A stretch of DNA of 52,707 bases from Pseudomonadota bacterium (GTDB lineage: Bacteria > Pseudomonadota > Gammaproteobacteria > Burkholderiales > Rhodocyclaceae), in NCBI GenBank assembly GCA_041179245.1, contig JBEGTT010000155.1, positions 1-52,707 on the forward strand, in the 5' to 3' direction. The translations under genes were made by a program, and so were the position numbers. This document shows, piece by piece, positions 16,992 through 42,152 of this stretch (within the stretch, counting starts at the first letter, position 1; each line of letters starts with the position of its first letter). The notes beneath the pieces were generated by a model, which ran no database searches, was not told where the DNA came from, and saw only the letters and a program-made list of their open reading frames with translations.

Positions 16992-17046
16992 GATGAACCG
17001 GTTTTTCGCTAAGGGTGATGTGGTCGTTAATGGTTGATTGGTACTA

Positions 17047-17946
17047 ATGGCTGGCATAGACCACGCACCTCCCCCATTTTTCAAGCGTGGGCCAGCACCG
17101 CTGGCCCTCCTTATTTTTTACTGTGCGCTTTCTTTAGCGCTGGTCGTTCTTGATCTAAAATTTCACAGCCTTGAAGTTTTGCGCCAAATTGCCCAAACGC
17201 TGGTTTACCCGGTTCAACGGCTGGCCCAAAGTCCAGCTGCGGTACTGGGAGGTTTCAGTGATTACATCGTTAGCGTCAAAACGTTGCAGGCTGAAAACGA
17301 GAGTCTGCATCAGCGAGAACTTGAGGTTGCAGCCAGTAACTTGCGGGTAGCTTCCCTAGAAGCTGAGAACGCCCGGTTGCGCCAGTTGTTGGATCTGCAA
17401 GAACGAGAGAAGGGTCGCGGTGTTGTGGCGACGATTCTGTATGCTGCCCGAGATCCATTTTCCCGGAAAATCGTTGTTGATCGGGGCTTGGAAAATGACA
17501 TTACCCCTGGTTTGCCAGTCATTTCTGAACAAGGGGTGATTGGTCAAGTCACCCGAGTATTTCCATTTGGTTCCGAAGTCACGTTGGTCACGGATAAGAA
17601 TCAGGTTGTTCCCGTCAAGGTTCTACGGACAGGTCAGCGTTCGGTTGTTTTTGGTTTGGGAAATGGCCAGTTGGAATTACGTTATCTCCCTTCCAATGTT
17701 GATGTGGTTGAGGGTGACATGCTGGTAACCTCCGGGATTGATGGGGTTTATCTTGGGGGTTTCCCAGTGGCACGGGTTGAACGGATTGAGCGTGAAACTG
17801 CCTATGCTTTTGCCCGGATTATTTGTACCCCGGTCACGGGAGCAGAAAGCCACGGTGAGGTGGTCATTCTCCGTCCGCGTATCAAATTGGCAGAACGCCC
17901 ACCTGAGCCTACGCCGATAACCCCCAAATCCCGCCGACATCGATAA
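17047..17946 (+). CDS. mreC: Rod-shape-determining protein MreC
   Basis: Position after mreB. N-terminal TM segment, a coiled-coil (LQAENESLHQRELE...LEAENARLRQLL) and a beta-rich C-domain. ATG at 17047 preferred over TTG at 17038. Confidence 0.9.
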   Translation: MAGIDHAPPPFFKRGPAPLALLIFYCALSLALVVLDLKFHSLEVLRQIAQTLVYPVQRLAQSPAAVLGGFSDYIVSVKTLQAENESLHQRELEVAASNLRVASLEAENARLRQLLDLQEREKGRGVVATILYAARDPFSRKIVVDRGLENDITPGLPVISEQGVIGQVTRVFPFGSEVTLVTDKNQVVPVKVLRTGQRSVVFGLGNGQLELRYLPSNVDVVEGDMLVTSGIDGVYLGGFPVARVERIERETAYAFARIICTPVTGAESHGEVVILRPRIKLAERPPEPTPITPKSRRHR

Positions 17947-31610: not shown

Positions 31611-31787
31611 ATGAAAACTTATCTGTGTATTGCCTGCGGGTTTATCTACGACGAAGCCGTTGGCGACCCCGAACACGGCATTTTGCCGGGAACCCGTTGG
31701 GAAGATGTCCCGGAAGATTGGAACTGCCCTGAATGCGGGAGTTCCAAGGGGGACTTTGAAATGGTGGTGATTGAGGGCGGAGAGTGA
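31611..31787 (+). CDS. Rubredoxin
   Basis: 58 aa from ATG 31611, preceded by [17 protein letters not shown]...WNCPECG provides two CxxC pairs. Confidence 0.92.
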
Positions 31788-31800
31788 AAATTGGCTTTTA

Positions 31801-33366
31801 CTACCACTTCCCAAGCGGCCCCAAAAACGCTTCAGCATTTTTGTAACCCACGACGCGCAAACTGCGAATTTCTTGCCCGTTGGCGTCAAAGAAGATAATT
31901 CCAGGCGGGCCAAACAGGTCGAAGCGCTTGAGCAGGGCGGCATCGTCGGTGCTGTTGGCGGTGACATCGGCTTGTAGCAGAACGACCTCTTTTAACGCGG
32001 CTTGCACCTTGGGGTCGGTGAAGGTGAATTTCTCCATTTCTTTGCAACTGACGCACCAGTCGGCGTAAAAATCGAGCATCACGGGGCGTTTAGCGGTGCT
32101 CAGTTTCTGTTCCAGTTCGGCGACGGTATGTACGCGCTCGAAAGGTAGGGCAGATTGGTGTGAAGCGCTGGAGTTACCGGTAATCGAAGGTAAAACGGGA
32201 TACACCAGCCAAGCGGCGGTCGCCAGCAATAACACACCAAAGAAGCGCTTGACCCATTCCATCCACGGGCCAGCTTTGGGCAATAAAGTACCAGCGGACA
32301 AACCGACTAGCAACAAAGGAACACCCATGCCAAGGGCCATCACGAACAAGGCTGTGCCACCAAACACAGCATCACCCGTTTGTCCGATGTAAAGCAGCGC
32401 ACCGGCCAGTGGCGCTGCGACGCAAGGGCCGACGATTAACGCCGACAGCGCACCCATGCCGAATAACCCCAGCCATTGACCACCGGGCAAGCGATTGGCG
32501 GATTCGGACAATTTACCTTGCAAACTCGCAGGCAGTTGTAGTTCGTAAAAGCCGAACATCGAAAAGGACAGCGCGACGAAAATCAAGGCAAAGCTGCCTA
32601 GAACCCAAATATTTTGTAGGGCGGCTGAGAGCAATGTTCCCGTTAAACCGGCAGCAACCCCAGCGATGGCGTAAGTGGTTGCCATACCTAAAACGTAGGC
32701 CAGCGACAGGCCAAAGTTATGCCAGCGACCAGTGTGCCCACGCCCCACGATGATGCCGGACAAGATCGGAATCATGGGCAGAATGCAAGGTGTCAGGGAC
32801 AAACCTAACCCCGCAACGAAGAAAAACAGCAAAGCGACGCTTAGACTACTGCCCGACAGAATGGCAGCGATGGCTGAAGTTTCATCAACTTGCGGTGGAA
32901 GAGATGGCGAGGGTTCTATGGTTTGTACCGCAACCTTGGCAGGCAATTTAACGGTGAGGATTTGGGTTTGTGGTGGATAACAAAGCCCAGCATCTGCACA
33001 GCCTTGGGCGGTTATAGAAAGCTTGAGCGTTTCATCATCGGTATTGCCCTGTAATGGAATCGTCGCTTTGAGTTCTTTGTAGAACACCGCAACGGCACCA
33101 AAATTTTCATCCTGTTTTTGCTTGCCAGCCGGCATTTCAGGTTTGCTCAAGGTGACGCTGTTGGGTGGATCAATCAACTTGATTTTCAGTTTGTCACGGT
33201 AGAGGTAATACCCTTTGGCAATCTCGTAGCGAACTTCCAGCGTTTGGCGGTCAATGGCCCGCAAGCTCGGCTTGAAGGCAACAGCCGGATCAAGGAATTC
33301 TTGGGCACTAGACAGTCCAGGAATGAGTTGCAGAACCAGAATGAAAACTTTAATGAAACGAAGCAT
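31801..33366 (-). CDS. dsbD: Thiol:disulfide interchange protein DsbD
   Basis: 521 aa. Signal peptide, alpha-domain Cys pair (GCADAGLCYPP), membrane Cys residues (LTPCILP, IVGPCVAAP) and a C-terminal thioredoxin CxxC (WCVSC). Confidence 0.93.
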   Translation of the reverse strand: MLRFIKVFILVLQLIPGLSSAQEFLDPAVAFKPSLRAIDRQTLEVRYEIAKGYYLYRDKLKIKLIDPPNSVTLSKPEMPAGKQKQDENFGAVAVFYKELKATIPLQGNTDDETLKLSITAQGCADAGLCYPPQTQILTVKLPAKVAVQTIEPSPSLPPQVDETSAIAAILSGSSLSVALLFFFVAGLGLSLTPCILPMIPILSGIIVGRGHTGRWHNFGLSLAYVLGMATTYAIAGVAAGLTGTLLSAALQNIWVLGSFALIFVALSFSMFGFYELQLPASLQGKLSESANRLPGGQWLGLFGMGALSALIVGPCVAAPLAGALLYIGQTGDAVFGGTALFVMALGMGVPLLLVGLSAGTLLPKAGPWMEWVKRFFGVLLLATAAWLVYPVLPSITGNSSASHQSALPFERVHTVAELEQKLSTAKRPVMLDFYADWCVSCKEMEKFTFTDPKVQAALKEVVLLQADVTANSTDDAALLKRFDLFGPPGIIFFDANGQEIRSLRVVGYKNAEAFLGPLGKW

Positions 33367-33378
33367 GGGTGTTATCCA

Positions 33379-34431
33379 TCAAGCAATGACAAAGTCGGTG
33401 TAAACCAAGGTGGGGTGCGATGTGGCGCCTATCAGCACAATTTTTATCGCTGCACCAGCACCTGAACCATCCGCATCATAGGAGAGATACCCGGTGGTTT
33501 TATCGTAAATCAAGTAGTGAGTTGCCGTTTGAGTAGCGGTTCCTTTGATGAGAAATTCGCTACTTTCTACCGTGCTTCCTATTTTGCCAATCAAAGAAGC
33601 CTTCAATGAAATCTTGTCGGTTCCGCTGACAAAGTCAGTGATGGTGTCAAAATCCGTGTTGGAAAATGCAACATCAAACCGGAAAATATCACTGCCGGCT
33701 CCGCCTGTCAGGACGTCTTTACCGGTACCCCCGATTAGTGTGTCGTTTCCATCCCCACTTATCAGCGTGTCCGCACCAGCCCCGCCATCCAGTGCGTTAT
33801 TTCCAGAATTGCCGGTGATTACGTTTGCCAATACGTTGCCTGTACCATTGATGTTGGTGCTGTCGGTGAGCGTCAGATTCTCAACGTTTCCAGACAAGGT
33901 AAACGAAATACTTGATTTCACTAAATCGGAGCCTTGATTGGCTAGTTCTATAACCACATCGCCCGTGTTATCCACAATGTAAGTGTCGTTGCCGAGACCG
34001 CCTACCATGCTATCGGCACCTGTTCCGCCATCGAGCGTATCGTTGCCCGCCAACCCCGTCAGGGTGTCATTGCCGGCATATCCATTGAGCGAATCGGCAA
34101 CAGCGGTTCCGGTAACCGTATCGTTGCCACTCCCCGGTGTAGTGGGTGTTGTCGTTGTAGTAGCTTCCCACTTGGTTATGCCGTTGTAGGTGACTTTCTC
34201 AAAACCGGTTAGGTAAACTTTGGCGCTTGCTGTGGCAATGATGACAATTCCATTTGAAGACGAAACGTTAAAAGTGCTTAGGTAGCCGGGATCAACAATT
34301 TGAAATACATCGGTACCGCTGCTGCCGTTGACGGATTTGTTTCGGAAGGAATTCCAGGCCATCTGATTAGAGATGTAGAAAGTATCGTTCCCTGTGGTAC
34401 CTGTCGCAACGTAAGAGGTGTAAGTCATCAT
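33379..34431 (-). CDS. RTX-type calcium-binding repeat protein
   Basis: Trimmed to MMTYTS... (AGGAA 8 nt upstream). Two blocks of GGxGxD nonapeptide repeats (GYAGNDTLTGLAGNDTLDGGTGADSMVGGLGNDTY and GGAGADTLISGDGNDTLIGGTGKDVLTGGAGSDIF). Thr-rich linker, hydrophobic C-terminus ...YTDFVIA. Confidence 0.88.
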   Translation of the reverse strand: MMTYTSYVATGTTGNDTFYISNQMAWNSFRNKSVNGSSGTDVFQIVDPGYLSTFNVSSSNGIVIIATASAKVYLTGFEKVTYNGITKWEATTTTTPTTPGSGNDTVTGTAVADSLNGYAGNDTLTGLAGNDTLDGGTGADSMVGGLGNDTYIVDNTGDVVIELANQGSDLVKSSISFTLSGNVENLTLTDSTNINGTGNVLANVITGNSGNNALDGGAGADTLISGDGNDTLIGGTGKDVLTGGAGSDIFRFDVAFSNTDFDTITDFVSGTDKISLKASLIGKIGSTVESSEFLIKGTATQTATHYLIYDKTTGYLSYDADGSGAGAAIKIVLIGATSHPTLVYTDFVIA

Positions 34432-34441
34432 GATTTCGTTC

Positions 34442-35329
34442 CTATTGTGTGGTGACTGAGCCATCAGGGCTCACGATTAAGTATCGAATGGGGTAAAGCT
34501 TGAAAAAAGGTTGCGGGGTTTCCATCAACATGCCGATGGTTGAACAACTGCCAGCATGCAAGGCTGTTTCAGCAATTACCGAGATAGATCGGTGAAAACT
34601 GACGGGAATCCCGGTTTTAGGATGAATGATGTGGCTATAACGCTGTCCATTGATTTCGAAGAAACGCTCGTAATCTCCACTGGTTGCCAAACCACCGCCG
34701 TGCATGGGGATGCTGGCAATCAATCCTGTTGCTTGATTGGGGTCTCGGATCCCAATTTGCCAAGGGCTGTTATCAGGTTGTGGCCCCAATACGCGAACGT
34801 CCCCACCAAAATTAACAAAGCCATACTGGAACCCTTCGTTAAGCAGTATTTCTGCGGCTCGATCAACGGCATATTCTTTGCCGAATCCACCAAAATCGAT
34901 TTCCATGCTGATCTTGGGTAAATAAATGTGGGTATCTGATGCTTCAACCGCTGACCAACTGACGAGCGAGCGCAATGACACCAATTCAGCCTCGGTTGGA
35001 ACCAGACGTTTTGTGAAATCCCAAGCACGACTGAGTTTTCCGGAGGTAATGTCAAACAAGCCGTCACTATCCTGATAGAGCGCATTGGCGTAACTCAGCA
35101 ACCAAGCGGTTTCTGGATCAATCAAGGTTCGGTGCCCCGTTCCAGCCGCTTGGTTAATCTGGCTAATGAGGCTGTCTGGGCGATAGCGAGAGTATTTGTG
35201 CTCGATCCGACGAACTTCGGTAGCCGCTAATTCAATCGCTTGTTTGGCTTTTGTTTCGTCCTCGGCTACTAGCGTAACTTCGCAGTGGCTGGCCATTGCC
35301 GGGAATTGAGCGGTGACAATATCCATCAT
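34442..35329 (-). CDS. apbE: ApbE-family FAD:protein FMN transferase
   Basis: 295 aa. ApbE motifs FGGDVRVLG, ATSGDYERFF and HIIHPKTG. The N-terminus MMDIVTAQFPAMASHCEV has no signal peptide or lipobox, and a stop lies just upstream, so there is no room for an extension. Confidence 0.9.
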   Translation of the reverse strand: MMDIVTAQFPAMASHCEVTLVAEDETKAKQAIELAATEVRRIEHKYSRYRPDSLISQINQAAGTGHRTLIDPETAWLLSYANALYQDSDGLFDITSGKLSRAWDFTKRLVPTEAELVSLRSLVSWSAVEASDTHIYLPKISMEIDFGGFGKEYAVDRAAEILLNEGFQYGFVNFGGDVRVLGPQPDNSPWQIGIRDPNQATGLIASIPMHGGGLATSGDYERFFEINGQRYSHIIHPKTGIPVSFHRSISVIAETALHAGSCSTIGMLMETPQPFFKLYPIRYLIVSPDGSVTTQ

Positions 35330-35332
35330 GGA

Positions 35333-36472
35333 TCAGAAGAAATGGGTTAGGCCAAATTGCCAGATACGGGCGCGGAAGGTGTCGATACCCGGACTGCCAT
35401 TCCCCGATAGTGCCAAGGCACTCCGTTGTTCGTAATCTTCATACTTCACATCGACGAGCCAGTCTTTGCCAATTTTTCGGGCTACTTTTAACCCCATCGT
35501 GCGGCCACCAAAGGCAGAGAGGCGCTGGTCTTGCGAGAAATAGGGTTGATTGCTCAGGTTGAATGTAGGGAGCGGGGCATTTTGGGGGTCTGCGTAGAAA
35601 AAAGCCGCTGTCTGAGTGTAGTAACGAAGGGCTGGCGTAATAATCCAATCATTCGCTGTTGGAATAACCCATTCCCCGCCGACGGTGTGTGAGTGAACGT
35701 CAAACGAGTCTTCGTAATAGCGATAGCTTAGGCGTAGGGTGGTGTTGCTTTCCACAAAATGATGGTTCCAGCGTCCTAGAATCGCGGTGCCTGCTTTGTG
35801 CCGGGGCCTGCCAAATTCCAGTTCCCCTTGTTTATAAGGGTCCGAATAAAACCCATGTCCATCGCTTTTGGTCAGATTGACTTGGACAATGTCTATCGGC
35901 GTCAAAATTTGGGTGACACCCACAATCAAATCTGTCACTGCCTTCTTCTCATTGACGACACCGTAATAAGGCACATCAATACGGTCATCAGTTTGGCCAA
36001 CGCCAAGATTGAAGGTGGTGTTCTTGTCTTCCGTGCTGATCGTTCCCGAAATGGACTGTGTGTTCGATAAATAGTCACTTTCAGACGAATAGGATTTGCT
36101 GATCGTTAACGTACCTTGTGAGAAGTAACGGGTTAGTCTGAGGTCGCGACCTGTCCGCTCATCCTTCATGTGGGCCGCAGAGGATTTTTCGCTGTGGTAA
36201 AGCGGGGTAGCCCCCGAAATCGTGTCGACGATCACGCCACCTTCAACCACCCAGTTACCTGCAAATGGCACCATCAGCAGTGTTGAGGGGGCTTTGACCG
36301 CAATCCGTTTTAGGCCGGGTTGGCTGTCCTGATAATCCAGATACTTGAAGCTGATTTGCGCGCGTTCAGGAATGGTATCCGCCAGCACAACCCCTGCGGG
36401 GAGCGCGGTGACACATCCGCATCCTGCCAACATGGCGGCATGGAGTGAGTTTTTAGTTGCAGCCACAGCCAC
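35333..36472 (-). CDS. DUF3570-type predicted outer-membrane beta-barrel protein
   Basis: 379 aa. Alternating beta-strand pattern rich in Y/W/G and an aromatic C-terminus ...WQFGLTHFF, typical of OMPs. Signal-like N-terminus containing LAGCGC. Contains DTISGAT (residues 83-89). The family assignment is from memory of the DUF3570 architecture. The GTG start is uncertain; ATG 36433 is an alternative. Confidence 0.7.
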   Translation of the reverse strand: MAVAATKNSLHAAMLAGCGCVTALPAGVVLADTIPERAQISFKYLDYQDSQPGLKRIAVKAPSTLLMVPFAGNWVVEGGVIVDTISGATPLYHSEKSSAAHMKDERTGRDLRLTRYFSQGTLTISKSYSSESDYLSNTQSISGTISTEDKNTTFNLGVGQTDDRIDVPYYGVVNEKKAVTDLIVGVTQILTPIDIVQVNLTKSDGHGFYSDPYKQGELEFGRPRHKAGTAILGRWNHHFVESNTTLRLSYRYYEDSFDVHSHTVGGEWVIPTANDWIITPALRYYTQTAAFFYADPQNAPLPTFNLSNQPYFSQDQRLSAFGGRTMGLKVARKIGKDWLVDVKYEDYEQRSALALSGNGSPGIDTFRARIWQFGLTHFF

Positions 36473-36671
36473 CTCCTCCTACGCCTGATCCTCCAGAAGA
36501 TGCTTCTTTACTGAAGTAAATATGTTCGGTGAAAGCAGCGTCCAGCTTGTCTGTTTCGAAGGTCATTTCAGGTTTGGACAAATAGCCTTTTTCCCACGGT
36601 TGAACAGGTTCAATCACGGCACAGCCAGACAAGCTAGCTGCGAATGCCATACTGAGGAGAAAAAGTTTCAT
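36453..36671 (-). CDS. DUF4266-type small lipoprotein with a Gly-rich CGC tail
   Basis: 72 aa. Signal plus lipobox MKLFLLSMAFAASLSGC. C-terminus SSGGSGVGGGGCGCN. 1-nt gap from the tlpA-like stop and a 20-nt overlap with the next gene. Confidence 0.7.
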   Translation of the reverse strand: MKLFLLSMAFAASLSGCAVIEPVQPWEKGYLSKPEMTFETDKLDAAFTEHIYFSKEASSGGSGVGGGGCGCN

Positions 36672-36672
36672 C

Positions 36673-37182
36673 TTATTGCCCTGTCTTCAGATGTTGCTCG
36701 ATCAATTTCTCAAGCTCTTCTTGGGCTGTGTGATTGAAGCCAATGTGTTGGTACAAAACTTTGCCGTCCCTACCGATCAGAAAACTGGTGGGCATTCCCC
36801 TCACACCATAGGCTTTAGGGGTAATTCCTTTGGGATCGAACGCGATCTGAAATTCGACAGGTAGCTGAGCCAGAAATTTTTCTGCATCTGATTTTTTGCT
36901 ATCTACATTGATTGCTAACACGTTGAAACCACGGTCTTTATATTGCTGCTCAATGGCATTCATCCAAGGGAAAGATTGGCGGCAAGGGCCACACCAAGAT
37001 GCCCAGAAGTCCAAATAAACCAGTTTCCCTTTGTAATCGCTAAGGCTAATTTTTTCAGTCGTGCCATCGAGTTGAAGCGAAGGGGCACTATCACCTTGCT
37101 CAAGTGCCAATGACGGCCCAGATGCCATAAATGTGATGACAAAAATCAGCGAACAAAAAATCGTACGGCAACTAAACATCAT
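36673..37182 (-). CDS. TlpA/ResA-like periplasmic thiol:disulfide oxidoreductase
   Basis: Trimmed to MMFSCRTIFCSLIFVITFMASGPSLA (signal or anchor). Thioredoxin-fold active site WASWCGPC. Confidence 0.88.
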   Translation of the reverse strand: MMFSCRTIFCSLIFVITFMASGPSLALEQGDSAPSLQLDGTTEKISLSDYKGKLVYLDFWASWCGPCRQSFPWMNAIEQQYKDRGFNVLAINVDSKKSDAEKFLAQLPVEFQIAFDPKGITPKAYGVRGMPTSFLIGRDGKVLYQHIGFNHTAQEELEKLIEQHLKTGQ

Positions 37183-37403
37183 GAATTCAACTTTGTTGGT
37201 GATGATTGAGGATTGTACGGGTTGATTGTTAACTGAACCTGAAGCCTGTGAATGTTTGCGGCAAATCTGAATCAAGTGGTACTAAAATTGGCTTTGTCGT
37301 AGAACTCATCAGTCCCGTAAAGGGGTTCTGTTTCATCTCTAACCCGCGATGCATTAGGAATGTGAAAAGTGGAAACAAACGTCAGCATTTCATTTTTAAT
37401 CTT

Positions 37404-40805: not shown

Positions 40806-42152
40806 ATGAACGCCATTGACATCTTTCCCTGGGATGACAATTTTAATACCGGGATAGATGAAATCGACGAGCAGCACAAACGCTTAGTGTTGCTGCTGAA
40901 CAAACTCGCCAGCCACGTTGCTTTTCGTTCTGACACCATTGAGCTAAACAGCATCTTTGATGAGCTGATCGACTACACGGTTTATCACTTCGAAACTGAA
41001 GAGAAAATCTGGGATCGTTACTTTATTGATGATAAAGCGGCGGCTCAGCATCAGGCGACTCACGCCAGTTTTGTCGACATGGTTCAGTTACTCAAAGATC
41101 AGCAGGACAAAAAACCGCTACGACAAATTGCCGAAGAAGCCTTGGATTATCTGGTTCGTTGGTTGGCATCGCACATTCTTGAAACGGATCGTTTCATGGC
41201 CTACGCTGTTGCCGCCATCCAAGCTGGAAAATCATTGGATGAGGCAAAAGCCGAGGCTACCGAGCGAATGACGGGTGCCACCCGGTCAATGATCGACATC
41301 ATTTTGTCGATCTATTCAACCCTTTCGCATAACACCCTGCAACTGATGCGTAAGCTAGTAGAGCAGGAGGAAGCTGAAGCGGCGCTACGTCAAAGTAAGG
41401 AGGAGTTACTCAAGGCAAAGGAGCGTGCCGAAGCAGCCAACCGTGCCAAAAGCCAGTTCCTAGCCACCATCAGCCATGAAATCCGAACCCCGCTGAATGG
41501 CGTATTAGGCATGGCGCAACTGTTGTTATTACCCGGTTTGTCGCAGGAAGAGCAGAACGAATTCGTTCATAACATTCTGAGTTCGGGAAACACCCTGCTG
41601 GCCCTGCTTAATGATGTGCTCGACGTTTCAAAAGTAGAGGCTGGGAAAATGGATCTAGTGCTCGCTAGTGTTTCTCCCGCTCAACTCCTTGATGATGTTT
41701 CCGCCCTGATGGGCGCGAATGCCCACACCAAAGGATTGTGCCTGTCCGTTGTTTGGAACGGCCCAACGCTACGCCACTACAGCGCTGATCCCGTCCGAAT
41801 TCGACAAATGCTGACCAATCTTGTCAGCAACGCCATTAAATTTACCGAACATGGGTCAGTTGCTGTTGAAGCGTCGGAAACAAACGAGACCACTATCGAT
41901 CACCAAGTATTTTCGACCCTTAGGTTTGCGGTAACTGATACGGGTATTGGTATCCCGGCCGACAAACTTGAATATCTTTTCCAGCCATTTACCCAATTGG
42001 ACAGTTCTGATACCCGGCAATTTGGCGGAACAGGGCTGGGGCTTTCCATTGTTCGTTCGCTAGCTGAGCGCATGAATGGGCTGACCGGTGTGAAGAGTCA
42101 ACCCGGCGTTGGGTCTACGTTCTGGTTTGAAATCCCGCTTGAGGTTCTCTAA
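40806..42152 (+). CDS. Soluble hemerythrin-domain sensor histidine kinase
   Basis: 448 aa with no TM segment. N-terminal bacteriohemerythrin ligand pattern (DEQHK, YHFETEE, HQATH, SHILETD), coiled coil, H-box [10 protein letters not shown], and N/G1/F/G2 boxes ([24 protein letters not shown]). No receiver or HPt domain. Confidence 0.88.

What the first reader, a model, noticed from the sequence alone, without database searches (positions are those of the whole stretch)
36206..36226. Exact ApbE flavinylation motif (DTISGAT) inside the predicted outer-membrane barrel encoded next to apbE
The DNA at 36206-36226 on the minus strand reads GAC ACG ATT TCG GGG GCT ACC, i.e. D83-T-I-S-G-A-T89 of the DUF3570-type protein. 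ApbE enzymes attach FMN by a phosphoester bond to the last Thr/Ser of D-x-x-[s/t]-g-A-[T/S], as established for NqrB/NqrC and RnfD/RnfG. A motif constrained at five positions is unlikely to arise by chance in a 379-aa protein whose gene ends 3 nt before apbE. Known ApbE substrates are inner-membrane or periplasmic proteins. A covalently flavinylated beta-barrel with an aromatic C-terminus (THFF) would be a new substrate class and a possible outer-membrane electron-transfer component.
Basis: partly seen in the sequence, partly recalled or inferred. Interest (0 to 1): 0.75.

Follow-up and report, generated by a model that had tools for sequence, protein, structure and literature searches.

The report
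Known flavin-attachment site in DUF3570 barrel
The motif is real and almost certainly a flavin-attachment site, but this protein family (DUF3570) was shown in 2021 to be flavinylated by its neighbouring ApbE enzyme, so it is not a new substrate class; still open are its outer-membrane location and an ApbE with no export signal.

Summary
Observation confirmed. Minus strand 36226-36206 encodes D83-T-I-S-G-A-T89 of a 379-aa DUF3570 protein (Pfam E=7e-51), whose stop lies 3 nt before apbE. Chance expectation is 0.004 per protein. The motif is essentially invariant in 120 close homologues and present in about 134 of 141 family representatives.

The "new substrate class" claim fails. Meheust et al. 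(eLife 2021, PMC8238504) showed that Chlorobium luteolum DUF3570 is flavinylated by its cognate ApbE at [S/T]GA[S/T] motifs. They also described the same thioredoxin-like/DUF4266/DUF3570/ApbE/DsbD cluster. The window protein is 39% identical to that protein, and its DTISGATP aligns with DAVSGASP, one of the two [S/T]GA[S/T] motifs of that protein; the paper found that both predicted sites had to be mutated to abolish flavinylation.

The barrel idea holds. AlphaFold2 (pLDDT 91, pTM 0.86) gives 16 strands, and all top Foldseek hits are outer-membrane barrels.

Three points go beyond the literature I could search:
- T89 ends strand 3, on the side carrying the long, variable (presumably extracellular) loops.
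- The window protein lacks the second motif (SSAA).
- The cluster's ApbE has no signal peptide in every locus examined where the start could be read, including C. luteolum. This implies flavinylation before export or an unknown route.

Verdict: already known, with modest residual interest.

The parts
36206..36226 (-). Flavinylation motif D83-T-I-S-G-A-T89 (family site 1). The predicted FMN acceptor is T89, codon 36208-36206.
   Evidence: It aligns with DAVSGASP, one of the two [ST]GA[ST] motifs of the experimentally flavinylated C. luteolum protein (PMC8238504).
36173..36184 (-). Degenerate second site (S97-S-A-A100). In 40 of 121 close homologues and about half of family representatives a second [ST]GA[ST] sits here.
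35333..36472 (-). DUF3570 protein, 379 aa. Predicted Sec signal peptide (about residues 1-31), 16-stranded beta-barrel, C-terminal THFF.
   Evidence: Pfam. AF2 model m9b3d53da658c: pLDDT 91.2, pTM 0.86, residues 1-30 below pLDDT 50. Foldseek top hits all OM barrels.
34442..35329 (-). ApbE-family FAD:protein FMN transferase, 295 aa, no signal peptide or lipobox (starts MMDIVTAQFPAMASHCEV).
36453..36671 (-). DUF4266 lipoprotein, 72 aa. Lipobox LSGC with Ala at +2, and a Gly-rich tail ending GGGGCGCN. Overlaps the DUF3570 start by 20 nt.
   Evidence: The C-terminal GCGCN is invariant in 79/79 loci.
36673..37275 (-). TlpA/ResA-like periplasmic thioredoxin (WCGPC). The likely true start is the ATG near 37182 (MMFSCRTIF..., a signal peptide).
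   Evidence: A promoter-like site lies at 37252-37225 (not above chance).
33379..34464 (-). RTX calcium-binding repeat protein, 361 aa, with no Cys and no N-terminal signal. It is embedded in the operon and overlaps the apbE end by 23 nt.
   Evidence: Homologues follow apbE in L004, L006, L019, L021 and L034.
31801..33366 (-). DsbD, 521 aa (DsbD_N, DsbD_TM and thioredoxin-like domains): the inner-membrane thiol electron transporter.

Best explanation
T89 is the FMN-attachment residue of an ordinary member of the DUF3570 family, a known ApbE substrate. The adjacent ApbE transfers FMN from FAD to the T89 hydroxyl as a phosphoester. The protein is a 16-stranded outer-membrane beta-barrel. T89 ends strand 3, at the base of loop L2, on the barrel side that carries the long and variable loops. 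By the usual rules for outer-membrane proteins that is the extracellular or lumen-mouth side.

The barrel is one part of a six-gene operon: tlpA-like, DUF4266, DUF3570, apbE, RTX, dsbD. The inferred electron path is cytoplasmic thioredoxin, then DsbD in the inner membrane, then the periplasmic WCGPC thioredoxin, then the CGC pair on the Gly-rich tail of the outer-membrane lipoprotein DUF4266, then FMN on DUF3570, then an unidentified acceptor at or beyond the outer membrane.

Status of each step:
- Shown elsewhere (PMC8238504): ApbE flavinylates a DUF3570 protein.
- Shown here: motif homology and conservation, barrel fold, operon conservation, leaderless ApbE.
- Inferred: loop-side orientation, the thiol-to-flavin route, the acceptor.
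- Also inferred: flavinylation must precede barrel assembly, probably in the cytoplasm, because the ApbE has no export signal.
For: - Motif and gene.
- Conservation.
- Published experimental flavinylation of C. luteolum DUF3570, which required both [S/T]GA[S/T] sites, and the published description of the DsbD / thioredoxin-like / DUF4266 / ApbE cluster: (PMC8238504).
- Homology to the characterised system: DUF3570 is 39% identical (E=3e-103), with DTISGATP aligned to DAVSGASP. ApbE is 50% identical and aligned from residue 1. The C. luteolum locus has the same gene order.
- Barrel: AF2 pLDDT 91.2, 16 strands. Foldseek top hits FadL, OmpG, PelB, CymA and BcsC, all at probability 1.0. The protein ends in Phe.
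- Loop side: connections on the side of L2 vary in length across 150 representatives (sd 3-14, up to 180 aa), whereas connections T2-T7 on the other side are nearly constant and T1 varies little (sd at most 1.7). Extra motifs in Chlorobiaceae paralogues lie in an L1 insertion on the same side.
- Operon conservation in 80 genomes plus 4 distant clusters.
- DUF4266 tail GCGCN in 79/79 loci, and WCGPC in 67 thioredoxins.
- Leaderless ApbE.
Against: - No experiment exists on this protein.
- It has only one of the two sites seen in many relatives.
- No 3D coordinates were returned, so whether T89 points into the lumen, outwards, or under a loop cap is inferred only from strand parity and loop statistics. 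The amphipathic signal is weak.
- A leaderless ApbE and a Sec-exported substrate are in different compartments. Cytosolic ApbEs are so far documented only for cytosolic substrates (PMC12052999).
- The electron route and the terminal acceptor are unproven. Direction of flow could be reversed.
- The cluster's ApbE has Gly where two solved ApbEs have an Asp. The C. luteolum enzyme shares this Gly (sequence) and was reported active.
Confidence: 0.8

Rival explanations
1. Same site and same family, but flavinylation happens in the periplasm. Either a second, secreted ApbE encoded elsewhere in the genome does it, or this ApbE gets out by a non-classical route and acts on the unfolded barrel precursor before BAM assembly.
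For: Characterised ApbEs acting on exported proteins are periplasmic lipoproteins, and a cytosolic Salmonella ApbE did not complement (PMC12052999). Loci where dsbD directly follows DUF3570, with no adjacent apbE, keep both motifs, so a distant ApbE can serve.
Against: The operon-encoded ApbE is leaderless in the window, in every one of the roughly 60 Burkholderiales-type loci where the start can be read, in C. luteolum, and in three distant clusters. The leaderless C. luteolum enzyme flavinylated signal-peptide-less DUF3570 in the E. coli cytoplasm (methods). Only 52.7 kb of this genome is available, so a second ApbE cannot be excluded.
Confidence: 0.3
2. The barrel is primarily a channel or transporter (porin-like, or an exporter for the adjacent secreted or surface protein). 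The flavin then acts on cargo in transit, for example reducing ferric chelates during uptake, rather than forming a trans-outer-membrane electron conduit.
For: Structural neighbours are substrate channels: FadL, CymA, Occ, BcsC, PelB. A large secreted or surface protein gene often follows apbE: RTX here and in five loci, an Ig-like repeat protein in L069, and a 952-aa protein with only faint Pfam hits (Lactonase, choice_anch_I) in L083. The 2021 paper notes 25 clusters with a VIT1 iron transporter.
Against: Foldseek similarity is generic (TM 0.4-0.56, about 10% identity), so no specific transporter relative stands out. The accessory genes are variable and absent from many clusters (C. luteolum, L084, L085), whereas the thiol-redox partners are invariant.
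Confidence: 0.2
3. The motif in this single-site protein is kept for structural reasons, or is a relic, and carries no flavin.
For: The second site has decayed to SSAA. No experiment exists on this protein.
Against: Five motif positions plus the following Pro are invariant or nearly so across the family. An intact apbE is translationally coupled 3 nt downstream. About two thirds of close homologues are also single-site (77 of 121).
Confidence: 0.04

Closest known systems
Chlorobium (Pelodictyon) luteolum DUF3570 (ABB24424.1) with its cognate ApbE (ABB24423.1), Meheust et al., eLife 2021
   Same: Same Pfam family, 39% identity over the full length, and the same gene order (redoxin, DUF4266, DUF3570, ApbE, DsbD). 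The window motif aligns with one of the two [S/T]GA[S/T] motifs of that protein. The ApbE is 50% identical and likewise leaderless.
   Different: C. luteolum has a second motif (DALSGAS) in a Gly/Ser-rich insertion in loop L1, which the window protein lacks. The window protein also lacks the L2 second site that many proteobacterial relatives carry. The window operon carries an extra RTX-repeat gene.
[quoted passage not shown]
   Same: Same D-x-x-[st]-g-A-[ST] acceptor motif and the same transferase family.
   Different: Those are inner-membrane or soluble periplasmic proteins served by secreted lipoprotein ApbEs. Here the substrate is a predicted outer-membrane barrel and the ApbE has no export signal.
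Porin-cytochrome outer-membrane conduits (MtrCAB type); comparison from my own knowledge
   Same: What it may work like: a beta-barrel in the outer membrane that houses a redox cofactor and pairs with a periplasmic-side redox partner.
   Different: There are no haem motifs; the only Cys residues of DUF3570 lie in its signal peptide. The cofactor is covalent FMN and the donor chemistry is thiol/disulfide. No sequence or specific structural relationship was found, so it is not a member.
DsbD-dependent periplasmic reducing pathways (DsbD to CcmG/TlpA/ResA)
   Same: A full-length DsbD plus a WCGPC TlpA/ResA-like thioredoxin in one operon.
   Different: The downstream client is a CXC lipoprotein and a flavinylated barrel, not cytochrome c maturation or DsbC/DsbG.

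Membership tests
DUF3570 (PF12094) flavinylated proteins | Pfam profile match above the gathering threshold | tested here: met
   173.8 bits against a cutoff of 25, E=7.1e-51
DUF3570 (PF12094) flavinylated proteins | Conserved [S/T]GA[S/T] flavinylation motif at the family's site 1 | tested here: met
   DTISGATP. The column is invariant in 120 homologues and present in about 134 of 141 representatives. It aligns with C. luteolum DAVSGASP.
DUF3570 (PF12094) flavinylated proteins | Second [S/T]GA[S/T] motif (the 2021 paper reports two conserved motifs) | tested here: not met
   SSAA at residues 97-100. Only 40 of 121 close homologues and about half of representatives have it, so it does not define membership.
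DUF3570 (PF12094) flavinylated proteins | Gene cluster with ApbE, DUF4266, a thioredoxin-like protein and (often) DsbD | tested here: met
   conserved in the loci.
DUF3570 (PF12094) flavinylated proteins | Covalently bound FMN | not testable with these tools
   Needs co-expression, UV in-gel fluorescence and mass spectrometry.
ApbE FAD:protein FMN transferase (PF02424) | Profile match and similarity to solved ApbE structures | tested here: met
   Pfam E=9.5e-72. PDB 1vrm E=9e-40 and 5mgy E=7e-30.
ApbE FAD:protein FMN transferase (PF02424) | N-terminal lipoprotein or secretion signal, typical of ApbEs that serve exported substrates | tested here: not met
   The protein starts about 10 residues before the first conserved motif (FPAMASHCEV). 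The same holds in C. luteolum and in every locus where the start is unambiguous. This does not exclude family membership, since cytosolic ApbEs are known.
Outer-membrane beta-barrel proteins (BAM substrates) | Signal peptide, an even number of antiparallel strands closing a barrel, C-terminal aromatic residue, short turns on one side and long loops on the other | tested here: met
   AF2 gives 16 strands at pLDDT 91, with residues 1-30 at low confidence. The C-terminus is ...THFF. All top Foldseek hits are OM barrels. The signal peptide was judged by eye; no SignalP-type tool was available.
Porin-cytochrome conduits (MtrAB-like) | Multihaem CXXCH partner inside the barrel | tested here: not met
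   DUF3570 and DUF4266 contain no CXXCH (sequences). This is a functional analogy only.

The most novel reading that the evidence does not exclude
The DUF3570 system is a flavin-based trans-outer-membrane redox module. A cytoplasmic, leaderless ApbE flavinylates the unfolded precursor before Sec export. The FMN-bearing chain crosses SecYEG and is assembled by BAM, so that the flavin sits at the surface-side mouth or lumen of a 16-stranded barrel. There the Gly-rich CGC tail of the outer-membrane lipoprotein DUF4266 threads up to deliver DsbD-derived thiol electrons to it. This would be the first covalently flavinylated outer-membrane protein, the first pre-export ApbE flavinylation, and a haem-free analogue of porin-cytochrome conduits.
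Probability: 0.3. Interest if true: 0.7.

Novelty: already known. Interest (0 to 1): 0.3.

Why it matters
The headline claim, a new ApbE substrate class, was published with experimental proof in 2021, so this window only adds one more orthologue.

What could still matter is the cell biology that the paper left untouched. If the barrel really sits in the outer membrane with its flavin on the loop side, then bacteria have a haem-free, thiol-fed route for moving electrons to the cell surface. The consistent absence of an export signal on the cognate ApbE would also mean a cofactor is attached before the protein crosses two compartments. The physiological acceptor is unknown; iron, oxidants or a surface protein are possibilities.

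Tried and rejected
- Supplementary tables of PMC8238504 were searched for ABB24423, ABB24424 and PF12094, to read the authors' signal-peptide calls. Nothing was found in the three files held.
- Exact-sequence look-ups of the window DUF3570 and of the Halioglobus protein P0422 found no record.
- No coordinate file is returned for the AF2 model. T89 orientation could therefore only be inferred from strand parity (weak amphipathic signal) and loop-length statistics.
- I considered folding a DUF4266-linker-DUF3570 fusion to test tail threading.
- I checked whether motif conservation tracks apbE adjacency. It does not.
- The second D..[ST]GA[ST] hit in the window (17375-17395) was rejected as chance; it lies antisense to the ORF I read as mreC.
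- The RTX protein was scanned by eye for a flavinylation motif. None is present; DFVSGTD is the usual RTX C-terminal motif.
- Literature searches for any description of a flavinylated outer-membrane barrel found none. The 2024 mSystems paper omits DUF3570 but contains an unexplained phrase, "and the outer membrane".
- The promoter/terminator scan was not above chance.
- Stop-codon read-through into the in-frame apbE (TGA TCC ATG) was considered and rejected, because the spacing is not conserved in other loci.

Full report
**1. The observation**

The minus strand from 36226 to 36206 reads GAC ACG ATT TCG GGG GCT ACC. It lies in ORF 35333..36472(-), which is 379 aa from a GTG start and ends ...THFF. 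It encodes D83-T-I-S-G-A-T89, the only [ST]GA[ST] in the protein. The ORF is a DUF3570 protein (PF12094, E=7.1e-51).

The next gene is an ApbE-family FMN transferase (34442..35329, PF02424, E=9.5e-72). The junction reads TTC TTC TGA TCC ATG ATG, so the stop and the start are 3 nt apart with no obvious Shine-Dalgarno sequence. That fits termination-reinitiation coupling.

In a protein of this size and composition the seven-residue pattern is expected 0.004 times. The six-frame translation of the whole window has one other hit (17375-17395, DPTTGAT). That hit lies antisense to an ORF I read by eye as mreC and is noise. The pattern alone would therefore not be significant at window scale. Conservation is what makes it real.

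**2. Conservation**

- In the 120 closest database homologues (46-91% identity), D83, S86, G87, A88, [ST]89 and P90 are invariant or differ in a single sequence.
- A profile search of 1.84 billion cluster representatives finds 3072 family members at E up to 0.001. Among the best 150, 141 cover this region, and about 134 of those carry [DE]-x-x-[ST]-G-A-[ST]-P here.
- Many relatives have a second [ST]GA[ST] 11 or more residues downstream: 40 of 121 close homologues and about half of the representatives. The window protein has SSAA there, so it is a single-site form.
- The motif does not depend on an adjacent apbE. Loci with no apbE hit in the DNA held, including eight Massilia, Pseudoduganella or Undibacterium loci where dsbD directly follows DUF3570, keep both motifs.

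**3. It is already known**

Meheust, Huang, Rivera-Lugo, Banfield and Light (eLife 2021, PMC8238504) started from orphan apbE genes and found DUF3570. They noted two conserved [S/T]GA[S/T] motifs and co-expressed C. luteolum DUF3570 with its ApbE in E. coli. Both serines had to be changed to alanine to abolish the UV-fluorescent band.

They also described the cluster of ApbE, DUF3570, a thioredoxin-like protein, DUF4266 (with its C-terminal CXC) and DsbD. They proposed a hybrid thioredoxin/flavin electron route fed by DsbD.

I recovered the C. luteolum locus (CP000096; redoxin, DUF4266, DUF3570 of 417 aa, ApbE of 306 aa, DsbD). The window protein is 39% identical to it over its full length (E=3e-103). 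DTISGATP aligns with DAVSGASP, one of the two [S/T]GA[S/T] motifs in that protein. The two ApbEs are 50% identical.

**4. The barrel**

An AlphaFold2 model built on an 80-sequence alignment has mean pLDDT 91.2 and pTM 0.86. It has sixteen strands, and residues 1-30 are at low confidence, consistent with a cleaved signal peptide (...AGVVLA/DTIPER). Foldseek against the PDB returns only outer-membrane barrels at the top: FadL, OmpG, PelB, CymA, the Occ family and BcsC. Probability is 1.0, TM-scores are up to 0.56 and identity is about 10%. This is a generic barrel with no specific relative.

Neither the 2021 paper nor anything else I could search says that DUF3570 is a barrel or is in the outer membrane. 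The group's 2024 AlphaFold survey leaves DUF3570 out but ends a sentence with "and the outer membrane".

**5. Where T89 sits**

T89 is the penultimate residue of strand 3 (residues 74-90). It is followed by an eight-residue connection to strand 4. If both termini are periplasmic, as is the rule for BAM-assembled barrels (established knowledge, not tested here), this connection is loop L2.

- The other connections on that side include the long ones (208-224, 288-320, 351-365), while every connection on the opposite side is 2-5 residues.
- Across 150 family representatives, most connections on the L side vary in length (sd 3-14, with insertions up to 180 residues directly after site 1). T2-T7 are nearly fixed and T1 varies little (sd at most 1.7).
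- In Chlorobiaceae paralogues and in C. luteolum, the additional motifs lie in a Gly/Ser/Thr-rich insertion in L1, on the same side.
- Strand parity puts T89 on the same face as E77 and D83, which would be the lumen face. The amphipathic signal is weak, however, and I had no coordinates.

My reading is that all flavin sites lie at the surface-side mouth of the barrel. This is inference.

**6. Partners**

The operon is tight:
- tlpA-like 36673..37275 (probable start near 37182)
- DUF4266 36453..36671
- DUF3570 35333..36472
- apbE 34442..35329
- RTX-repeat gene 33379..34464
- dsbD 31801..33366

Its junctions are, in order, a 1-nt gap, a 20-nt overlap, a 3-nt gap, a 23-nt overlap and a 12-nt gap.

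The four-gene core (redoxin, DUF4266, DUF3570, ApbE) is conserved in most of 80 genomes and in three distant clusters, often with DsbD. DUF4266 is a lipoprotein (LSGC with Ala at +2; by the E. coli sorting rule that means the outer membrane). Its Gly-rich tail ends GCGCN in 79 of 79 loci. The thioredoxin carries WCGPC in 67.

**7. The ApbE has no export signal**

It begins MMDIVTAQFPAMASHCEV, about ten residues before the first conserved block, and it aligns to the mature part of solved ApbEs. The same is true in every locus where the start is unambiguous, in C. luteolum (MDIFRFGFTAMAG...), and in three distant clusters, where ApbE is 300-307 aa.

The 2025 ApbE review records cytosolic ApbEs only for cytosolic substrates. 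It also records that a cytosolic Salmonella ApbE failed to complement (PMC12052999).

A site on the outer side of an assembled barrel cannot be reached by any ApbE. Flavinylation must therefore precede assembly. The simplest reading is that it happens in the cytoplasm on the precursor. The published experiment in fact flavinylated signal-peptide-less protein in the E. coli cytoplasm, and that protein ended up in the insoluble fraction (methods). Engineered motifs are enough for ApbE to act (abstract of PMC10722498). That SecYEG can pass a side-chain adduct the size of FMN is my recollection of in vitro work and was not checked here. A second secreted ApbE elsewhere in the genome cannot be excluded from 52.7 kb.

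This ApbE clade also has Gly (G260; 64 of 66 sequences) where TM1553 and the P. stutzeri ApbE have an Asp. The C. luteolum enzyme shares the Gly (sequence) and was reported active.

**8. Mechanism and rivals**

Best explanation (0.8 for the core): T89 is flavinylated by the adjacent ApbE in a known DUF3570 system. The electron route is DsbD, then the TlpA-like thioredoxin, then the DUF4266 CGC pair, then FMN, then an unknown acceptor. The route and the acceptor are inferred.

Rivals:
- Periplasmic flavinylation by another or non-classically exported ApbE (0.3, for that one step).
- A channel or transporter whose flavin acts on cargo (0.2). A variable large secreted or surface protein gene often follows apbE: RTX here, an Ig-like repeat protein in L069, and a 952-aa protein with only faint Pfam hits in L083.
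- A flavin-free relic motif (0.04).

**9. Verdict**

Three points are left over: outer-membrane placement with the flavin on the loop side, the leaderless ApbE, and the possible threading of the DUF4266 tail. These are worth a specialist's attention, but they are inferences and they apply to the whole family, not to this window.

Noticed in passing
window 34442-35329 (-); also L001-L085 and L081:8288-9208: The ApbE encoded next to DUF3570 lacks any signal peptide or lipobox in the window, in the experimentally used C. luteolum system, and in every examined locus with an unambiguous start. The substrate, by contrast, carries a Sec signal. The 2021 paper does not comment on this.
   Followed up: yes
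window 34552-34554 (-), ApbE G260: This ApbE clade has a conserved Gly (64 of 66 sequences) where T. maritima TM1553 and P. stutzeri ApbE have the Asp of the ..ADALST.. block. From memory that Asp is a metal ligand; I did not verify this.
   Followed up: partly
window 33379-34464 (-): An RTX calcium-binding repeat protein (361 aa, no Cys, no N-terminal signal; it looks like a type I secretion substrate) is embedded in the operon between apbE and dsbD. Homologues occupy the same slot in L004, L006, L019, L021 and L034.
   Followed up: partly
L069:7077-8390 (+): In a Chlorobiaceae MAG, the gene after one DUF3570 paralogue encodes an Ig-like-repeat protein. It begins MAAIDFISGASKP, a complete D-x-x-S-G-A-S motif at residues 5-11, and ends in a hydrophobic C-terminal anchor. 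It could be a further flavinylated surface partner.
   Followed up: no
L069:8447-9790 and L069:11720-12973; P0332: Chlorobiaceae DUF3570 paralogues carry extra [ST]GA[ST] motifs in a Gly/Ser/Thr-rich insertion in loop L1, giving up to three sites per barrel. The L069 locus holds three DUF3570 genes and two TlpA/DUF4266 pairs, and has no apbE within 6 kb.
   Followed up: partly
P0236 and P0204 (family representatives): P0236 (487 aa) looks like a natural fusion of a DUF4266-like lipoprotein to DUF3570, and it lacks the SGA motif. P0204 has a Pro-rich insertion of about 170 aa immediately after site 1.
   Followed up: no
window 17375-17395 (-): This is the only other D..[ST]GA[ST] in the six-frame translation (DPTTGAT). 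It lies antisense to an ORF I read by eye as mreC (17038-17946 +), so it is a chance match.
   Followed up: yes
window 35327-35335 (-): apbE is in the same reading frame as DUF3570 (TGA TCC ATG), with no Shine-Dalgarno sequence. This suggests termination-reinitiation coupling. The spacing is not conserved in other loci, so read-through fusion is unlikely.
   Followed up: partly
L085:4767-5270 (+): In one distant cluster a small c-type cytochrome gene (Cytochrome_CBB3, 167 aa) sits directly upstream of the redoxin/DUF4266/DUF3570/ApbE genes.
   Followed up: no
window 40806-42152 (+) and about 31611-31787 (+): By eye, there is a hemerythrin-like N-terminal domain fused to a histidine kinase downstream of an ORF I read as topoisomerase III, and a rubredoxin-like ORF (CxxC...CxxC) just beyond dsbD. 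Neither was examined.
   Followed up: no
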